This document shows positions 6,559-42,884 of a stretch of 64,000 nt of DNA, in pieces; the stretch's first letter is position 1; the number at the start of each line of letters is the position of its first letter. Below the pieces are notes generated by a model, which saw nothing but the letters and a program-made list of their open reading frames with translations, was not told where the DNA came from and made no database searches. A program made the translations under genes and the position numbers. Origin of the DNA: a virus; the IMG/VR virus record IMGVR_UViG_3300025128_000015, positions 64,001 through 128,000 of that record. One strand, written 5' to 3'.

Positions 6559-8388
6559 ATGATGAAGATTGGTGAAATATTAGATAGAAGAGGGAAAGAG
6601 TTACTCTCTGAAGCTCGTACCCCGTCCCAGAAAGAGATCGAAACTCATGCTCTGTCCATGGCGAAAAAGTATAATGTCCCTTTTGACATTATCATGCGCC
6701 ACATGTGGGTTGAGAGTCGCTATAATACAAAAGCAAGAAGCGAAAAAGATGCATATGGATTAATGCAGTTGATGCCAAATACAGCAAAGGGACTGGGAGT
6801 TGATCGATATGATTGGAAGCAAAACATTGAAGGCGGCGCCAAATACTTAGATCTCTTAAGAAAGAGGATACCTAAAAGAACTCAAAAAACCACCAACGCC
6901 AAAGGCGTGAAGAATATATGGCCGGCAATTGCCGTGGCATACTATTCTGGTGGCGGTGGGCTCAACAAGGTCGTCACCGCCGCCGCAAAGGCCGGCTATG
7001 TCGACAAAGAAGGCATGGTCGATTGGATGAGATACAGCAAGGAGACTGGAAGGTTCGCAAGGCGCATTCGCTACGCAGATGCAATTTATGATCCTAATCA
7101 TAGAATACAGAGGAGCCGTCTTAAGCGCCACCCTACATATACTATTCCGGTGCCTAAAGAACATATACACTCTAGCGGGCTGGAGGATTTTGGACAATCT
7201 CCAACTGGTACTGACGGCAAGACGACCGTGAGAGACTCAAGTGCTGCTCCTACGGTTATCTATATTGGAGACTCTACAACAGGCGGGATGGCACGTCATA
7301 TGAAAAAGGTCTTCAAGAAAAACGGTGTTAACGCACATGTTTTTCATGTCAATGGCGCCGGCGCAGCACTCATGCACACGATGGTAACAGGAAGATTTAA
7401 TAAATGGTCTAGCAAATATGACAAAGCTAAAAGAGAGAAGGCTATGTCCATTGCAGCCAAAATTGCCAATCTAAAAGCGCAAGGACCAGTATCAATTAGA
7501 ATTAATACTCTGGGTGGTAATGATCGCTTTCGTGTTGGTAGTGAGAAGAGCATAAGCAAGTACGTTGAGAATTATGTTAAGCCTCTTTTTAAGATGGTCG
7601 ATGAAGTGGGCGGTTCTGGCCGGTCTAAAACATATGATGCGGACTTAAAGAACAAGGCTATCGATGAAAAATATAGAGCGGCTGCCGAAGAGGTGGGCAC
7701 TCCCTACTATAGCGCCCGCGGCGCTGACGGCAAACCACAATCGTTTGGTAGTCCCTGGGCGCCAAGTGAACAATTTCCATGGAGAGAGAAGCAGGGCATC
7801 ACGGCTTATTACAGGCGACAAGCAGAAGAAAGAATCAAATTTAGCCTAAGCAATAAGAATATTAAATTTAGCCCCGGCCAGGCGCACCAGCCTGAGAAAA
7901 AGTTTTCTTTTAAGCCTTCATCCTCTCCGAGAGGACGGTTCTTGAGAAGCTACAAGTCGTTCCTTAAAAAGAATCCAGACTTTAATTTTGATAAATTTTA
8001 TAAAGATGTGGAGACTCATCTTGGTAGTGTTGCTTACGCCATGCCAAAACACGGATCCGATTACATTTTTGGACCAGAACACATGAGAACTTGGAAAGCT
8101 TTACAAAAGAAAAGATCAGCAAATTCTTTAAAACCGGATGCTATAGCTACTCCGACTGGTGCACCTATTGGCCCGATGACCAAAGAAAAAGAGCAAGAAT
8201 TGATTGATAAGACGCTTGCTCCTGTACAGGCTACAACAACGTCACCCACCCTAGTCAAAACTCCCACACCACCGTCTCCCGAGGTTAGCACCTCTACCAA
8301 CAAGACATCCCCTGATAAGCTTGTTAAAAAGGGATATAAGCCTGAAGACGGTGATTGGGTTGATGGTAAGTGGTATCCACACTATTAA
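6559..8388 (+). CDS. Lytic transglycosylase (SLT) fused to an SGNH-like domain
   Basis: VESRYNTKARSEKDAYGLMQLMP...NIEGGAKYL; later YIGDST and GGND; Pro/Thr-rich tail. Confidence 0.8.
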   Translation: MMKIGEILDRRGKELLSEARTPSQKEIETHALSMAKKYNVPFDIIMRHMWVESRYNTKARSEKDAYGLMQLMPNTAKGLGVDRYDWKQNIEGGAKYLDLLRKRIPKRTQKTTNAKGVKNIWPAIAVAYYSGGGGLNKVVTAAAKAGYVDKEGMVDWMRYSKETGRFARRIRYADAIYDPNHRIQRSRLKRHPTYTIPVPKEHIHSSGLEDFGQSPTGTDGKTTVRDSSAAPTVIYIGDSTTGGMARHMKKVFKKNGVNAHVFHVNGAGAALMHTMVTGRFNKWSSKYDKAKREKAMSIAAKIANLKAQGPVSIRINTLGGNDRFRVGSEKSISKYVENYVKPLFKMVDEVGGSGRSKTYDADLKNKAIDEKYRAAAEEVGTPYYSARGADGKPQSFGSPWAPSEQFPWREKQGITAYYRRQAEERIKFSLSNKNIKFSPGQAHQPEKKFSFKPSSSPRGRFLRSYKSFLKKNPDFNFDKFYKDVETHLGSVAYAMPKHGSDYIFGPEHMRTWKALQKKRSANSLKPDAIATPTGAPIGPMTKEKEQELIDKTLAPVQATTTSPTLVKTPTPPSPEVSTSTNKTSPDKLVKKGYKPEDGDWVDGKWYPHY

Positions 8389-20051: not shown

Positions 20052-21632
20052 ATGGTTAAGAGTTATTCGCAAGGAAAAGACTTACGCGAAAAGATTCTCC
20101 GAGGCGCCAGTGTCCTGGCTGATAACGTTGCCTCGACATTAGGTCCCAAAGGACGAAACGTTATCTTACACAAAGAAGGCGCAAGCCCAATGATCACTAA
20201 AGACGGCGTAACAGTTGCAAAGTTTGTTAAACTGGAAGATCCGTTTGAAAACTTAGGTGCTCAAATTATCAAGCAGGCTGCGTCTAATACAAATAGCACA
20301 GCCGGCGACGGTACTACGACGTCGACTGTACTAGCCCGAGAAATGCTCTCTAAGGCACAGAAGTACATCGCTGCAGGTGCTAATCCAATTGATATCAAGA
20401 GAGGCATGGACAAAGCCACAGAGGCTATTGTAACAGAGTTAGAGAGACTAGCCAAGCCAATTAAATCAGAGGAAGATGTGCGACACATTGCAACAATCTC
20501 AGCCAATGGCGACACTAGTATCGGTGAGATGATTGCCATGGCCGTTGATAAGATTGGAAAAGATGGAGCCATATCAATTGAAGAGGGTCGATCGATGAAG
20601 ACGTCTTTGGATATTGTCGAGGGCTTTAGATTTGATGCTGGATATTGTGCACAAGCTTTCGTAACAAACAAGCGAAAGCAATCCATCAACTACGATGATG
20701 TTCTATTGCTGGTTACGAACTACAAGATTGAAATGCTTGAGGAAATTTTGCCTATACTTGAAGTAGTTGCAAGAGAAGGTCGACCATTCATAATTGTATC
20801 AGAAGAGTTAGAAGGACAAGCATTAGCTGCCCTTATCATGAATACCGTCAGAGGTACAATGAAGGTTGCAGCAATCAAAGCTCCAAGATACGGACAAGAG
20901 CGCAGGAGTATTCTAGAAGACTTGTGTATTTCTACAGGCGCCACCTTTGTCAGCAGGGATTCTGGACTCAAGCTATCAGATGTAAAACTTAAACATCTGG
21001 GTAGTGCTAAAAAGATTGAAGTGCTTAAGAATCAAACAACAATTGTGGATGGAAAAGCAGATTGGTCAAAGGTTGACGAAAGAATCGAAAGCCTTAAGTC
21101 TGAGATTAAACAGACAGATGGTATAGCAGAGTGTGAAAAACTTCAAGAGCGAATCACAAGACTTTCTTCTGGTGTTGCTGTAATTCGTGTTGGTGCACCA
21201 ACTGAGATTGAGATGGTTGAAAAGAAACATCGGATTGAAGATGCTTTGGAAGCAGTTAGGTCAGCACAGTTAGAGGGCACACTCCCTGGCGGAGGGACTA
21301 GCCTTATCCGAGCAGTTCAAGACTTAGAAGTTGAGACAGGTAACGATGATCAGCGTCTTGGCGTCGAGGTTATAAGACAATCAGCTTACGGCCCATTGAA
21401 ACAAATGTCAAAGAATGCCGGAGAGTCGTATGATTTGATTCTGAACAAGTTGTTAGATAGTCCGAACACACACGGCTGGAACTTTGCTACTAATGAAGTG
21501 GTAAACATGTATGAGAATGGTATCATTGATCCTGCTAAGGTAACCAGGACAGCTTTGCAAAATGCTACTTCTGTCTCATCGACTTTGATCACAACTAATC
21601 ATGCAATCGTGGAGGCCACAATTGAGAGTTAA
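20052..21632 (+). CDS. groEL: Chaperonin GroEL
   Basis: GPKGRNV, TKDGVTVAK, GDGTTT, GGGT, GIIDPAKVTR; no GGM tail. Confidence 0.95.
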   Translation: MVKSYSQGKDLREKILRGASVLADNVASTLGPKGRNVILHKEGASPMITKDGVTVAKFVKLEDPFENLGAQIIKQAASNTNSTAGDGTTTSTVLAREMLSKAQKYIAAGANPIDIKRGMDKATEAIVTELERLAKPIKSEEDVRHIATISANGDTSIGEMIAMAVDKIGKDGAISIEEGRSMKTSLDIVEGFRFDAGYCAQAFVTNKRKQSINYDDVLLLVTNYKIEMLEEILPILEVVAREGRPFIIVSEELEGQALAALIMNTVRGTMKVAAIKAPRYGQERRSILEDLCISTGATFVSRDSGLKLSDVKLKHLGSAKKIEVLKNQTTIVDGKADWSKVDERIESLKSEIKQTDGIAECEKLQERITRLSSGVAVIRVGAPTEIEMVEKKHRIEDALEAVRSAQLEGTLPGGGTSLIRAVQDLEVETGNDDQRLGVEVIRQSAYGPLKQMSKNAGESYDLILNKLLDSPNTHGWNFATNEVVNMYENGIIDPAKVTRTALQNATSVSSTLITTNHAIVEATIES

Positions 21633-29513: not shown

Positions 29514-29606
29514 ATGTATAAAAAAAGAAAAGAAGCTGACAATCTTTTTATGACCTTGGTCGTTGCAGGCATTCTTGCTGTACTTAGCTACAACGCCGTA
29601 GTATGA
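29514..29606 (+). CDS. Tiny single-transmembrane protein
   Basis: GGAGG RBS; ATGA overlap with the next ORF. Confidence 0.5.
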   Translation: MYKKRKEADNLFMTLVVAGILAVLSYNAVV

Positions 29607-31749: not shown

Positions 31750-31850
31750 AAAAGTTTATCGAAGAATTAAGAGATATCTTTTCACATGTTCTACGTGTGT
31801 GTATTTTTGCCTTGTTTCTCATTTTTTGCTATCCCATGTTCTGATTTTCC

Positions 31851-32601: not shown

Positions 32602-33666
32602 ATGGCCATCGATTTCAAAACATTTAATCAAGTTGCCCCGCATGTCGCGGCAGTCCACAAGCCTGTTCTTCTACGGGGACGCCACGGCGTCGGCAAATCC
32701 GAAGTTGTATACCAGCTAGCTGTCCAGCTTGATAAGCCAGTCGTCGAACGACGTGCCTCACAAATGACCGAGGGCGACTTGGTTGGTCTTCCTAAGACCG
32801 ATGGGGACGTAACCTCCTTTTGTCCTCCTGATTGGTTTCAGACGGCATGTGATAACGCGGTCGTGCTCTTCTTTGATGAAGTTGACCGTGCTGTCACCGA
32901 GGTTCGTCAGGGTCTATTCGAGCTAACAGATTCGCGTAAGCTGTTTGGTAATCATCTCCATCCCGATACTGTCATCGTTGCTGCAATCAACGGCGGCGAC
33001 CACGGTTCACAATATCAGGTTGGCGAGATGGACCCTGCCGAGCTTGACCGATGGACCGTCTTTGATGTCGAGCCTACGATTGAAGATTGGCTTGATTGGG
33101 CGAAGGCTAACGTCGATGGTGTCGTTTGGGACTTTATCAATCAGAATCGATCTCACTTAGAGCATCAGACTGACTTCGAGCCTAACAAGGTTTACCCTTC
33201 TCGTCGCTCTTGGAAACGTCTCAACGACTGCCTAGCACACGCTGGCTTCCTGTCCGATGATGCTGATAAGTCTTCGGTATATCATCTGGCGACTGCATTC
33301 GTCGGCTTCGAGGCTGCTGTGTCCTTCAACGACTTCGTTCAAAACTATGAACGTCAAGTGACCGTTAAGATGATTCTTGATGAGGGCAAGATTAATAAAA
33401 CGTCTAACTTCGGTATCAACGAGCATTGCGCCCTGATTGAGAAAATCGAAGCTAGTGATACTTTCACCACCGTATTAGCAGAAAATCAGGTTCAGAACTT
33501 GGCTAACTACTTCGTAACTTTGCCATCTGAACCCGCGATGAAGCTGTGGACTGCTATCGGCAAGGGTGTAAATGAAAATGTGATTGCACTGCACAAGTCT
33601 AAGGCTGACGATGGCACTAAGATTTCAACTCGCATGGTTACCATGCTTACCGGAAAAAATGAATAG
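32602..33666 (+). CDS. MoxR-like AAA+ ATPase
   Basis: GRHGVGKS, LFFDEVDRA, MDPAELDRW, SRRSW. Confidence 0.85.
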   Translation: MAIDFKTFNQVAPHVAAVHKPVLLRGRHGVGKSEVVYQLAVQLDKPVVERRASQMTEGDLVGLPKTDGDVTSFCPPDWFQTACDNAVVLFFDEVDRAVTEVRQGLFELTDSRKLFGNHLHPDTVIVAAINGGDHGSQYQVGEMDPAELDRWTVFDVEPTIEDWLDWAKANVDGVVWDFINQNRSHLEHQTDFEPNKVYPSRRSWKRLNDCLAHAGFLSDDADKSSVYHLATAFVGFEAAVSFNDFVQNYERQVTVKMILDEGKINKTSNFGINEHCALIEKIEASDTFTTVLAENQVQNLANYFVTLPSEPAMKLWTAIGKGVNENVIALHKSKADDGTKISTRMVTMLTGKNE

Positions 33667-41267: not shown

Positions 41268-41486
41268 ATGAAAACAGGCGACTTAGTAAAATTAAAGCAA
41301 CCGACGACGAGAGACTTCAAAGAGGTCTTTCTAATTGTCGACACCTTGCAACTCGGTCCAGGCGCTCGCGCTACTTATGGCGAGGAAGGGTCTAATTGGT
41401 TAAAGTTGGAAGGTCGAGAAGGTTGGTATACTAGCGGATGGACACGATCCGCAGATTACGAGGTAGTAAGTGAAAGTGGGCGATAA
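41268..41486 (+). CDS. MKxGDLV mini-protein
   Basis: MKTGDLV...YEVVSESGR. Confidence 0.7.
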   Translation: MKTGDLVKLKQPTTRDFKEVFLIVDTLQLGPGARATYGEEGSNWLKLEGREGWYTSGWTRSADYEVVSESGR

Positions 41487-41727
41487 GGTAAAACTAGTAG
41501 GCAAGACAAAGCACGGCAAGAATCGTGTACGTGAGCAAGGCCATGATTGGGTCGTTGTAAAGACATCCAACAATTTAGCGTTTGCCGATAACCGCGAACA
41601 AGAGTTCGCACTTTTACGCGCCAAAGAACGGCCTCATGAGCATTGGCGATGGGTCGCCGTACAAAATGATAAGAACTTTCTCGTTGAGGTATTAACCAAT
41701 GATAATGAGAGGTTAGAAGGTGCGTAA
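41470..41727 (+). CDS. MKxGD mini-protein
   Basis: GTG-KVGDKV; 17-nt overlap. Confidence 0.7.
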   Translation: MKVGDKVKLVGKTKHGKNRVREQGHDWVVVKTSNNLAFADNREQEFALLRAKERPHEHWRWVAVQNDKNFLVEVLTNDNERLEGA

Positions 41728-41799
41728 AACATTTCGCATATGCCTATATAGGGCGAAAAAGTGCGTAATTTACTTCCCAAGTGCGTAAAAAGTTTCGCA
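41721..41799. promoter_or_regulatory. Two imperfect palindromes (candidate enhancer sites)
   Basis: TGCGTAAAACATTTCGCA (41721) and TGCGTAAAAAGTTTCGCA (41782), with a half-site at 41761. Confidence 0.55.
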
Positions 41800-41844
41800 C
41801 CTAATAGGCTAAAATCGACTATTAGTCGAGGGTCTAAAGTGTCC

Positions 41845-41857
41845 TAAGTCATTGAAT
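41845..41857. promoter_or_regulatory. IHF-like site
   Basis: TAAGTCATTGAAT differs from YAANNNNTTGATW at one specified position. Confidence 0.45.
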
Positions 41858-41896
41858 TCACTAAAGAATCAAAATAAATGCCCAAAATGGCAAAGT

Positions 41897-41912
41897 TGGC
41901 ACAGGACTTGCA
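41897..41912 (+). promoter_or_regulatory. Sigma54 (-24/-12) promoter
   Basis: TGGCACAGGACTTGCA with correct GG to GC spacing. Confidence 0.7.
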
Positions 41913-41989
41913 ATATATATAGGTATGAATTCACACTTTGTCGACAGTATAGAAAATCAAAAGAAAGTGAAAAATAATACTTTTACCCC

Positions 41990-42017
41990 TTGTCTGGCCA
42001 ATTCTGGTGCTTACATT
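41990..42017 (+). promoter_or_regulatory. Early promoter (sigma gene)
   Basis: TTGTCT-N16-TACATT. Confidence 0.7.
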
Positions 42018-42059
42018 ATAGGGGTAAGAGGAAACACTAAAAGCTCAGGAGCTTCAAAT

Positions 42060-42884
42060 ATGCTTAACTCAATCGCAATCTTAGCCGCAACCGTTCAAAT
42101 CCTTAGCCGCGACGAGCAAATCAGTCACGTTGCTGCTTTTCAGAAGACCGGCGATAACCGCGCCATGGATGCACTTATCCGCTCCAATATCCCGCTTGCT
42201 ATCAAGATTGCAAAAAAGCACATCCGCAACGGTGTCGATATCGATGATTTATTGATGGAAGCGATCACCGGCATTATGCGAGCAGCAGAATCTTTTGATT
42301 CTACTTGTGGCGCTTCTTTCACTACATACGCACGTCAATGGATGACGGCAAATTGTCAGCAGTTCGTTCAAGAAAATTGTGGAACGATTCGAGTCGGCTC
42401 CCGTGTCGCTCGCAAGTTGTACGCTTCGCTTCCTCGCTTGCGTCGACAATTCGGCCATGATGTCGACGTCGACACGATTGCACGAGAGCTTGACCTTGAT
42501 GCTAGCGCTGTTGAAGCCGCGCTTCAATTACTTGGCAAACGAGCCGCTAGCTTAAACGCTCCGCTAAATGCCGAGGGTGCAACTGTTGCAAATATTGTAG
42601 CAGATAACAAGATTCTAGCAGAAGAGAAAGTTATACGTTCTGAGAGTAGCCGGAATATTGCCGAGGTTGTAAATATTTTTAAGCAAACGATTAAGAATGA
42701 TCGCGACACTAAAATATTTACACACCGTATTGCTTCCGATTTATTCGAGAACGATAAGATGACAACCGTACAACTTGCTTCTGAATTCAATGTATCTAAG
42801 CAGCGTATTGCTCAGATTGAGAAAGGTATGACTCAGAAGCTACGCAAAGCACTCCAAACGTGTGCAGTAGCAGCCGTAAACTAG
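42060..42884 (+). CDS. RNA polymerase sigma factor, RpoH/sigma32-like
   Basis: LIRSNIPLAIKIAK, DDLLMEAITGIMRAAESFD, SFTTYARQW, ARKLYASL, region 4 VSKQRIAQIEK; AGGAG RBS. Confidence 0.88.
   Translation: MLNSIAILAATVQILSRDEQISHVAAFQKTGDNRAMDALIRSNIPLAIKIAKKHIRNGVDIDDLLMEAITGIMRAAESFDSTCGASFTTYARQWMTANCQQFVQENCGTIRVGSRVARKLYASLPRLRRQFGHDVDVDTIARELDLDASAVEAALQLLGKRAASLNAPLNAEGATVANIVADNKILAEEKVIRSESSRNIAEVVNIFKQTIKNDRDTKIFTHRIASDLFENDKMTTVQLASEFNVSKQRIAQIEKGMTQKLRKALQTCAVAAVN

What the first reader, a model, noticed from the sequence alone, without database searches (positions are those of the whole stretch)
41721..42060. Complete host sigma54 promoter architecture upstream of the phage's own sigma factor
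Seen: TGGCAC-AGGAC-TTGCA at 41897-41912 has exact -24/-12 spacing (predicted +1 near 41923). An IHF-like site lies at 41845. Two imperfect palindromes TGCGTAAAANRTTTCGCA lie about 125-200 nt upstream, 61 nt apart. A separate sigma70-type promoter sits at 41990. Known: sigma54 needs an enhancer-binding AAA+ activator bound upstream, often with IHF bending; myxobacteria use many such activators in starvation and development. No activator gene is in the window. Inference: the phage may wire its sigma factor, and hence its transcription programme, to a host signalling state. The in-frame ATG at 41925 could give a leaderless, N-terminally extended sigma isoform.
Basis: partly seen in the sequence, partly recalled or inferred. 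Interest (0 to 1): 0.8.

Follow-up and report, generated by a model that had tools for sequence, protein, structure and literature searches.

The report
Host sigma-54 promoter before phage sigma gene
A 190-kb uncultured marine T4-type phage, like most of its wild relatives, puts a near-perfect host sigma-54 (enhancer-dependent) promoter with upstream palindromes in front of its own sigma-factor gene, so this gene's expression probably depends on a host activator protein; no transcript has been measured and the host is unknown.

Summary
TTGGCAC-AGGAC-TTGCA lies at 41896-41912. It is the only intergenic full match in the 189.6-kb genome.

Among 54 distinct homologous sigma genes with at least 400 nt of upstream sequence, 36 carry TGGCA[CT]-N6-TGC on the coding strand within 520 nt upstream. 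That includes all 23 with at least 50% protein identity. Density is 1.42 per kb upstream against 0.034 per kb elsewhere. The -24 and -12 elements are invariant while the 5-nt spacer varies. GTGYG-N10-CRCAC palindromes sit at fixed offsets.

The phage encodes no RpoN, enhancer-binding ATPase, Fis-type HTH or IHF/HU, so the machinery must come from the host.

The leaderless, N-terminally extended sigma isoform is not supported. That ORF is absent, stopped or out of frame in relatives. The real start is ATG 42060.

The "sigma70" promoter at 41990 is one copy of a repeated cassette promoter.

A sigma-54-like promoter in a phage has a precedent (Pseudomonas phage YuA). A sigma-54 promoter before rpoH has a precedent in E. 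coli. I class this as a new variant of a known kind.

The parts
41470..41727 (+). Upstream 85-aa ORF, the last mini-gene of the accessory region. Its stop codon TAA (41725-27) lies inside palindrome 1.
   Evidence: ORF list; sequence. No Pfam family. The C-terminal ...ELEGA* is conserved in close relatives.
41720..41739 (.). Upstream palindrome 1, GTGCGTAAAACATTTCGCAT. Candidate enhancer (activator-binding) site, centre about -193.
   Evidence: The same site sits at the same offset (-167 from the T of TGGCAC) in L001, L002, L013, L015 and L017. Arms are kept while the interior varies.
41761..41780 (.). Half-palindromic third copy, GTGCGTAATTTACTTCCCAA.
   Evidence: Conserved in L001, L002 and L017.
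41781..41800 (.). Upstream palindrome 2, GTGCGTAAAAAGTTTCGCAC. Candidate enhancer site, centre about -132.
   Evidence: L015 has GTGTGTAAAAAGTTACACAC, changed symmetrically in both arms. Unique in the genome.
41845..41857 (-). IHF-like box (minus strand ATTCAATGACTTA), centre about -72.
   Evidence: The box TAA-N4-TTGAA recurs at a fixed offset in many relatives: -52 or -31 from TGGCAC. It matches 8 of 9 consensus positions, always with the same departure.
41867..41895 (+). Conserved A-tract-rich block, AATCAAAATAAATGCCCAAAATGGCAAAG, immediately upstream of the -24 element.
   Evidence: 75% of columns are invariant among five lineages whose sigma proteins are 77-87% identical.
41896..41912 (+). 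Sigma-54 type -24/-12 core, TTGGCAC-AGGAC-TTGCA.
   Evidence: In 33 distinct relatives T-TGGCA, TGC-A are invariant and the spacer varies. Enrichment is 42-fold upstream of sigma genes.
41913..41923 (+). AT-rich start region ATATATATAGG. Predicted transcription start at G41922 or G41923.
   Evidence: (A)TATATATAGG follows the -12 element in nearly all relatives, and the GG is invariant. This 10-mer occurs only once more in the genome, inside a gene. The start site is inferred from standard sigma-54 geometry.
41925..42059 (+). In-frame ATG-initiated extension. Most likely a non-coding leader, not an N-terminal extension.
   Evidence: It contains the cassette promoter. No Rfam family; the fold is not significant (z = -1.36).
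41986..42026 (+). Second promoter P2: CCCCTTGTCT (-35 TTGTCT, 41990-95), 16 nt, TACATT (42012-17), then TATAGGGGTAAG. One copy of a repeated cassette promoter.
   Evidence: Further + strand copies at 31849, 33792, 38130, 38581, 39123, 39982 and 41117. Present before sigma in many relatives and absent in L015-L017.
42047..42051 (+). Shine-Dalgarno AGGAG, 8 nt before ATG 42060.
   Evidence: Conserved. 49% of ORFs of at least 100 aa have GGAG/GAGG at -17..-5, against 5% in the control.
42060..42884 (+). Phage sigma-70-family factor, 274 aa, RpoH/RpoS-like.
   Evidence: Pfam Sigma70_r2 at 7.5e-12 and r4 at 2e-4. Best NCBIfam model is sigma-32, 114 bits, below its cut-off. PDB sigma hits. Homologues are 264-275 aa.

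Best explanation
The 330-nt gap before the phage sigma gene is an enhancer-dependent promoter read by the host's sigma-54 RNA polymerase.

Proposed mechanism: host E-sigma54 binds TTGGCAC-N5-TTGCA (41896-41912) as a closed complex. A host AAA+ enhancer-binding activator binds as dimers to the GTGCG-N10-CGCAC palindromes at about -132 and -193, plus a half-site at about -152. DNA bending brings the activator to the polymerase. The bend would come from the conserved box at about -72 and the A-tracts at -56 to -28, through IHF or intrinsic curvature. ATP hydrolysis then opens the AT-rich ATATATATA segment, and transcription starts at G41922/3.

The transcript runs through a non-coding leader to the SD and ATG 42060 and yields a 274-aa RpoH/RpoS-like sigma factor. 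This factor presumably redirects host core polymerase to a class of phage promoters. A cassette promoter (P2, 41990-42017) gives a second route and possibly autoregulation.

Shown: the sequence anatomy; its conservation with invariant -24/-12 elements and a variable spacer; and the absence of phage-encoded RpoN, activator or IHF.

Inferred: binding, the start site, the identity of the activator and its signal, and which holoenzyme reads P2.
For: (1) The core is an exact consensus, unique among intergenic regions of the 189.6-kb genome. The same holds in a complete 180.7-kb relative.

(2) Conservation: 36 of 54 distinct sigma genes with enough upstream sequence have the motif on the coding strand within 520 nt. 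All 23 with at least 50% identity have it. Density is 1.42/kb against 0.034/kb elsewhere.

(3) Pattern of variation: among 33 distinct cores, the T before TGGCA, the C at position 6 (32 of 33), TGC and the following A are fixed. None of these was fully required by the search pattern. The spacer takes at least 9 forms and the spacing never changes. Most relatives read TGGCACGCGACTTGCA, which is closer still to the published consensus.

(4) On a quick sigma tree the motif lies on both sides of the midpoint root. Starred branches force at least 5 changes of its absence, which I read as repeated loss.

(5) Palindromes with conserved arms and variable interiors sit at fixed offsets: -167/-106 in this subclade, -126/-74 in another. 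L009 has three tandem copies. An IHF-like box also sits at a fixed offset.

(6) The core block is as conserved as the best-conserved coding parts of sigma.

(7) The phage has no PF00158, PF04552, PF04963, PF02954, PF00216 or GAFTGA in a real gene. The weak PF00158 hit is a MoxR/CobS-type ATPase.

(8) Precedents: phage YuA has a sigma-54-like promoter with a mapped start site. The rpoH genes of E. coli and Salmonella carry a sigma-54 promoter.
Against: No transcript, start site or protein binding has been measured.

The host is unknown, so the presence of RpoN and of a matching activator cannot be checked.

The strongly conserved ATATATATAGG after the -12 element is not part of the usual sigma-54 consensus and needs its own explanation.

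The IHF-like box always departs from the E. coli consensus at the same position.

About a third of relatives lack the motif and use other promoters, so it is dispensable.

No terminator separates the gene from upstream cassette promoters, and P2 lies downstream. Sigma-54 is therefore probably not the sole input.

The palindrome matches no activator site known to me.
Confidence: 0.68

Rival explanations
1. E-sigma54 does bind here, but the palindromes are not activator sites. They would bind a phage or host repressor or another regulator. The activator would work from solution, or the stable closed complex would act mainly as a roadblock or insulator against read-through from upstream cassette promoters until it is activated.
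For: There is no terminator between the upstream promoters and the sigma gene. Sigma-54 closed complexes are stable without an activator (established knowledge; an insulation role is discussed in bioRxiv 10.1101/086108, listed). In one subclade a perfect 20-bp inverted repeat brackets the second palindrome, suggesting additional structure-based insulation. Different lineages pair the same core with different upstream repeats.
Against: The palindromes sit at fixed offsets of about 7, 10, 12 and 16 helical turns from the -24 element, in the -100 to -200 range typical of enhancer sites. Two or three copies per promoter fit the assembly of an activator oligomer.
Confidence: 0.14
2. The element is a promoter for a phage-directed holoenzyme, either the gp55-type late sigma or the phage's own RpoH-like sigma, acting through the TATATATA block. 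The resemblance of the upstream part to sigma-54 sites would then reflect a different DNA-binding protein.
For: TATATATA differs by one base from the T4 late promoter TATAAATA. A gp55-like gene exists at G000:160408-160785. ATATATATAGG is more conserved than expected for a sigma-54 start region. The same core plus TATATATAGG occurs in other phages lacking this sigma.
Against: All 12 informative positions of the sigma-54 consensus are matched at exact spacing, and only those positions are invariant. A cognate promoter class should recur in the genome, but TGGCAC-N5-TTGC plus TATATATAGG occurs once. First-stage notes propose a different late motif. The distance from TGGCAC to TATATA does not fit -35/-10 geometry.
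Confidence: 0.1
3. This is a chance match carried along by common descent, with no function.
For: With one mismatch allowed, such motifs occur at chance frequency in the window.
Against: The motif is kept at sigma identities down to 43%, while its position relative to the gene shifts from -57 to -372 and the flanks are replaced. The spacer varies but the elements do not. Enrichment is 42-fold.
Confidence: 0.02

Closest known systems
Classical enhancer-dependent sigma-54 promoters with IHF (nifH/NifA, Pu/XylR, pspA/PspF, glnAp2/NtrC)
   Same: -24 GG and -12 GC with TGGCAC-N5-TTGCA. Two or three inverted-repeat sites 100-200 nt upstream. A bend site in between. For comparison, the E. coli pspA region read also has an A-rich block directly before TTGGCACG.
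   Different: It lies in a lytic-type phage genome that encodes none of the machinery. It has a conserved ATATATATAGG start region. The palindrome GTGCGWAA-N4-TTWCGCAC matches no activator site I could name. The IHF-like box deviates consistently at one consensus position.
Sigma-54-like promoter of Pseudomonas phage YuA (Ceyssens et al. 2008; start site re-mapped by ONT-cappable-seq, bioRxiv 10.1101/2023.10.13.562163)
   Same: A phage gene set is read from a host sigma-54-type promoter, and the phage relies on host sigma factors.
   Different: YuA is a siphovirus of a known host, and the promoter was found experimentally. Here the promoter specifically precedes a phage-encoded sigma factor, has a full enhancer region and is conserved over a large uncultured T4-type clade. 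Nothing has been measured.
Sigma-54-dependent promoter of cellular rpoH (E. coli, Janaszak et al. 2007; Salmonella site TGGCACGGTTGTTGC, PMC3844500)
   Same: A sigma-32-like gene carries a sigma-54 promoter alongside sigma-70-type promoters, so it is a cascade from one sigma family to the other.
   Different: The phage protein scores below the RpoH equivalog cut-offs and is only about 30% identical to cellular sigmas. No evidence shows that gene and promoter were captured together.
Sigma cascades of phages (SPO1 gp28 then gp33/34; T4 gp55) and sigma-54 to FliA flagellar cascades
   Same: A sigma gene acts as the switch point of a temporal programme. In Vibrio and Pseudomonas, fliA is itself under sigma-54 plus an activator (my own knowledge, not checked here).
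   Different: In the known phage cascades the first phage sigma is made from sigma-70/sigma-A early promoters, not from an activator-dependent sigma-54 promoter.

Membership tests
Sigma-54 (RpoN) dependent promoter | GG at -24 and GC at -12, separated by exactly 10 nt | tested here: met
   GG 41898-99 and GC 41910-11. The spacing is invariant in 33 distinct relatives.
Sigma-54 (RpoN) dependent promoter | Extended consensus YTGGCACG-N4-TTGCW | tested here: met
   TTGGCACAGGACTTGCA here; TTGGCACGCGACTTGCA in most relatives.
Sigma-54 (RpoN) dependent promoter | Selective constraint falls on the -24/-12 elements, not on the spacer | tested here: met
   Position counts; enrichment and distribution.
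Sigma-54 (RpoN) dependent promoter | Upstream activator (bEBP) binding sites about 80-200 nt upstream | tested here: inconclusive
   Conserved palindromes lie at fixed offsets. Protein binding and the identity of the binder cannot be tested here.
Sigma-54 (RpoN) dependent promoter | RpoN and an AAA+ activator with a GAFTGA loop are available in the cell | not testable with these tools
   The host is unknown. The phage has none.
Sigma-54 (RpoN) dependent promoter | Transcription start 11-13 nt after the -12 GC, dependent on rpoN and ATP hydrolysis | not testable with these tools
   Only predicted: G41922/41923, where the GG is invariant.
IHF binding site (WATCAANNNNTTR) | Match to the 13-bp consensus, located between enhancer and promoter | tested here: inconclusive
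   8 of 9 specified positions match, with the same departure (T for A) in nearly all lineages. The offset is fixed. The phage has no IHF/HU.
Sigma-70 family sigma factor, RpoH (sigma-32) subfamily | Regions 2 and 4 present; score above the RpoH equivalog cut-off | tested here: not met
   Regions 2 and 4 are present. TIGR02392 scores 112 bits against a cut-off of 323, and NF005143 scores 114 against 241. It is sigma-70 family and RpoH/RpoS-like, but not a certified RpoH.
T4-type late promoter (TATAAATA, read by gp55) | A TATAAATA box at -10 that recurs before late genes | tested here: not met
   The box here is TATATATA, one mismatch. TATATATAGG occurs only here and once inside a gene.

The most novel reading that the evidence does not exclude
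A large clade of lytic-type marine T4-like phages may use the host's sigma-54 enhancer system as a checkpoint. The phage's own sigma factor, and so a whole block of its programme, would fire only when a particular host activator is on (a nutrient, envelope or proteotoxic stress signal, possibly triggered by infection itself). P2 would then lock the decision in.

Beyond this clade, sigma-54-type cores followed by TATATATAGG, each with its own upstream repeat set, may form an unrecognised promoter class. They are shared by several unrelated uncultured large phages that encode neither this sigma nor an activator.
Probability: 0.3. Interest if true: 0.85.

Novelty: new variant of a known kind. Interest (0 to 1): 0.68.

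Why it matters
Phage gene-expression programmes are thought to begin from constitutive sigma-70-type early promoters. A conserved, activator-dependent sigma-54 promoter before a phage sigma gene would mean that part of a lytic phage's programme is conditional on a host signalling state. That would give a molecular handle on how marine phages sense host physiology, for example nutrient limitation or stress.

It also supplies a host-prediction constraint: the host must have RpoN. This argues against hosts of groups that rarely carry rpoN, such as cyanobacteria (PMC12316311).

The fragment is short and testable in vitro with heterologous sigma-54 holoenzyme even though the host is uncultured.

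The same core occurs in other phage lineages, which suggests that sigma-54 use by phages is under-appreciated.

Tried and rejected
- Close DNA relatives in GenBank phages: none. The single-protein IMG/VR scan also found none. The profile scans worked.
- Phage-encoded activator: rejected. The PF00158 hit of 11.8 bits at window 32617 is a MoxR/CobS-type ATPase. GAFTGA-like strings occur only in short minus-strand ORFs. A 40-bit PF00158 hit in another phage record is a ClpB-like protein.
- Host identification failed.
  - MCP points to Far-T4 phages with hosts in several phyla.
  - The phage GroEL is only 40-45% identical to GroELs of Planctomycetota and Patescibacteria-type MAGs. The five MAGs I searched (one Planctomycetaceae, four small genomes of about 1.1-1.4 Mb) contain no related capsid gene.
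  - Cluster names are uninformative.
  - A pattern scan of 401 genomes turned out to cover small, roughly 1-Mb genomes and found nothing.
  - A Flavobacteriia host is attractive, because there sigma-54 drives groESL, dnaK, lon and clpB (PMC9723704). But the phage's heavy Shine-Dalgarno use argues against it, since that paper notes flavobacteria lack SD sequences.
- Known activator sites: the E. coli PspF/pspA enhancer shows no similarity to the palindromes.
- A known RNA element in the leader: none.
- Extended sigma isoform: rejected.
Full report
**Setting.** The window is G000:C1:64001-128000 of a single 189,594-bp virus record with 38% G+C. All long ORFs lie on the + strand. Earlier notes of this scan call it an uncultured marine T4-type phage. 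I confirmed a Gp23-type capsid gene. Its nearest cultured relatives are Flavobacterium phage immuto (48.6%), Microcystis phage Mel-JY01 (47.8%) and the Far-T4 phage RM378 (42.8%). A gp55-type late sigma also exists, at G000:160408-160785. The gene studied here is therefore an additional sigma.

**Observation.**
- The core is TTGGCAC-AGGAC-TTGCA at 41896-41912.
- ATATATATAGG follows at 41913-41923.
- The palindromes are at 41720-39 and 41781-800, with a half-copy at 41761-80.
- The IHF-like box is at 41845-57.
- The second promoter has TTGTCT at 41990-95 and TACATT at 42012-17.
- AGGAG is at 42047-51, followed by ATG 42060.

The exact 11-base sigma-54 pattern occurs twice in the genome, and the other copy lies inside a 297-aa ORF. 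The palindrome pattern occurs only here. With one mismatch allowed the motif count equals chance. The single match alone would therefore be weak evidence.

**The gene.** The product has Sigma70 regions 2 and 4. Its best NCBIfam models are sigma-32 and RpoS, both far below their cut-offs. It aligns with solved SigA, RpoS and RpoH chains. Forty-eight homologues were found, nearly all 264-275 aa. They align from the Met at 42060.

**Relatives.** Profile-based scans gave 12 IMG/VR and 80 metagenome loci, with sigma identities of 22-96%. A sigma-54 core lies on the coding strand 57-372 nt before the sigma start in most of them, and almost never elsewhere in the loci.
- After dereplication there are 70 distinct genes.
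- Of the 54 with at least 400 nt upstream, 36 have the core within 520 nt.
- By identity class: 23 of 23 at 50% or more, 13 of 27 at 40-50%, and 0 of 4 below 40%.
- Density is 1.42 per kb upstream against 0.034 per kb elsewhere.

Thirty-three distinct 46-mers give T-TGGCAC-(G/A)(C/G)(G/A)(A)C-(T)TGCA-(A)TATATATAGG. Several positions not fully required by my search pattern are nonetheless invariant: the T before TGG, the T of TGC and the A after TGC. C6 is kept in 32 of 33. The spacer takes at least nine forms. This is the signature expected of a sigma-54 binding site, not of mere shared ancestry.

On a quick IQ-TREE of 67 sigma proteins the motif appears on both sides of the midpoint root. Starred branches force at least five changes of its absence, which I read as repeated loss. 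The careful tree search did not finish, so this is a rough result.

In a complete 180.7-kb relative, the only intergenic full match is again the one before sigma. Lineages without the motif have the cassette promoter or another sigma-70-like promoter instead.

**Enhancer region.** Palindromes with arms GTGYG/CRCAC and variable interiors sit at fixed distances from the core. Centres are at -167 and -106 from the T of TGGCAC in this subclade and at -126 and -74 in another. L009 has three tandem copies. L015 has both arms changed symmetrically. Measured from the -24 GG, these are about 16, 10, 12 and 7 helical turns. Some lineages carry a different palindrome, for example GTGTGCAAAGATTGCACAC.

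The box TAA-N4-TTGAA lies at -52 (this subclade) or -31. Read on the other strand it is TTCAA-N4-TTA, that is WATCAANNNNTTR with T in place of the first A. In the second subclade the same box also stands, in direct orientation, next to each palindrome. It may therefore not be a simple IHF site.

Among five lineages whose sigma proteins are 77-87% identical, 75-80% of columns in 41876-41915 are invariant. That is as high as the best-conserved coding segments. By contrast, 41956-42033 has none.

**Who supplies the machinery.** The phage genome gives no hit for Sigma54_DBD, Sigma54_CBD, HTH_8 or Bac_DNA_binding. The only Sigma54_activat hit, 11.8 bits, falls in a MoxR/CobS-type ATPase. No real gene carries a GAFTGA-like loop. 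Four other complete or large phage records that carry the same core also lack a bEBP. RpoN, the activator and any bending protein must therefore be host proteins.

**Extended isoform.** ATG 41925 is in frame here, in L013 and in one 316-aa gene call (P0009). It is absent in L015-L017. It is followed by a stop after 27 codons in L001/L014. In L002/L018/L019 it is in another frame and ends in an ATGA overlap. The apparent peptide conservation coincides with the cassette promoter sequence. I reject the extension.

**P2.** CCTTGTC-N16-TAYNTT followed by TAGRTGTAAC recurs on the + strand at 31849, 33792, 38130, 38581, 39123, 39982, 41117 and 41988. Other first-stage notes describe the same family and liken it to RpoH-type promoters. 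It fits CTTG-N17-CYTATNT, which I recall as the alphaproteobacterial sigma-32 consensus. I could not verify that consensus in the library. Sigma-70 and RpoH motifs do overlap in that group (PMC3616915). Whether host sigma-70, host RpoH or the phage sigma reads P2 is open. If the phage sigma reads it, P2 would give positive feedback.

**Host.** Unknown.
- Marine Far-T4-like genomes have been linked in silico to Bacteroidetes (PMC7198788).
- In Flavobacterium psychrophilum, start-site-mapped sigma-54 promoters drive groESL, dnaK, grpE-dnaJ, lon, htpG and clpB (PMC9723704). PMC12316311 reports the same trend for Bacteroidota and Planctomycetota. That would make a stress-coupled phage sigma attractive.
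- Against this, 49% of this phage's ORFs have GGAG/GAGG at -17..-5, versus 5% in the control. PMC9723704 notes that flavobacteria lack Shine-Dalgarno sequences. This argues for another host, perhaps a proteobacterium.
- Cyanobacteria rarely have rpoN (PMC12316311).

**Wider occurrence.** An IMG/VR scan for TGGCAC-N6-TGCA-N0-1-TATATATAGG found 26 contigs. Only 8 have the sigma gene downstream. The others place the same core before small unannotated ORFs, with 2-3 tandem copies of a different palindrome, CTGTAGCAAAATGCTACAG. One contig has two such cassettes. The eight such records searched lack this sigma, and four of the five no-sigma records searched for Gp23 lack a T4-type capsid gene. The ORFs have no Pfam or PHROG family. 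The conserved AT-rich start region is thus a feature of a broader, undescribed set of phage sigma-54-type promoters.

**Literature.** I found no paper describing a sigma-54 promoter before a phage sigma gene. Phage YuA is reported to depend on sigma-70 and sigma-54, and has a mapped sigma-54-like promoter. E. coli rpoH has a sigma-54-dependent promoter, and Salmonella keeps the site.

**Verdict.** The sigma-54 reading is the best explanation at about 0.68, including the host-activator step. The extended isoform is rejected. Strict gating is doubtful because of P2 and possible read-through. This is a new variant of a known kind.

Noticed in passing
L132-L157 (IMG/VR loci), e.g. L135 oriented positions 7034 and 7731; L151; L154:1027: The same core (TGGCAC-N6-TGCA-TATATATAGG) occurs in about 18 viral contigs that lack the sigma gene. 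There it precedes small unannotated ORFs with purine-rich leaders and follows 2-3 tandem copies of the palindrome CTGTAGCAAAATGCTACAG. One contig has two cassettes 700 nt apart.
   Followed up: partly
G012 (record of L143), positions 29553(-), 30273, 40991, 41762, 46899, 52434: A 216.9-kb viral record carries six TGGCAC-N5-TTGCA sites, each followed by an AT-rich TATAAT-like stretch. It also encodes a ClpB-like 878-aa protein. It may use sigma-54 promoters as a whole class.
   Followed up: no
L004 about 2130-2250; also L005, L021, L025, L028, L048 and L076: In one subclade, a perfect 20-bp inverted repeat (AATCATTTCAAGGGGTTAGC ... GCTAACCCCTTGAAATGATT) brackets the promoter-proximal palindrome. 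The sigma-54 transcript there first encodes a hydrophobic peptide of about 40 aa (e.g. MTELTEIAIISLASGIAIGYLIGIVKHFADHNWRLDCIDLF) before the sigma gene.
   Followed up: partly
L003, L031, L032, L034, L055, L059 and L083, 15-40 nt after the predicted start: The short 5' leaders contain a small hairpin whose stem changes in a compensatory way (GTTCC/GGAAC, GTCCC/GGGAC, GAGCC/GGCTC).
   Followed up: no
L009 (+984 and +1562 from the sigma start); L007 (+1002); L033 (-257 and -66): Some relatives have further sigma-54-like sites. One type lies just downstream of the sigma gene (GGGCAC-N5-TTGCA; TGGCACGTATTTTGCA in an intergenic gap). L033 has two tandem cores upstream.
   Followed up: partly
window 41816-41830 and the equivalent place in relatives: Each close lineage has a different small palindrome between palindrome 2 and the IHF-like box: TCGACTATTAGTCGA here, ATCAAATTGAT in L002, GGTCAAAAATCGACC in L001, CTTGTGGCCAAG in L015.
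   Followed up: no
window 20052-21632 and 32602-33666; G000:160408-160785: The phage encodes a GroEL (phrog_5725, 6.6e-147), a MoxR/CobS-type AAA+ ATPase and a gp55-type late sigma, in addition to the RpoH/RpoS-like sigma.
   Followed up: partly
whole genome, + strand ORFs: Shine-Dalgarno use is strong: 71 of 144 ORFs of at least 100 aa have GGAG/GAGG at -17..-5, against 7 of 144 in the control. This is useful as a host constraint.
   Followed up: yes
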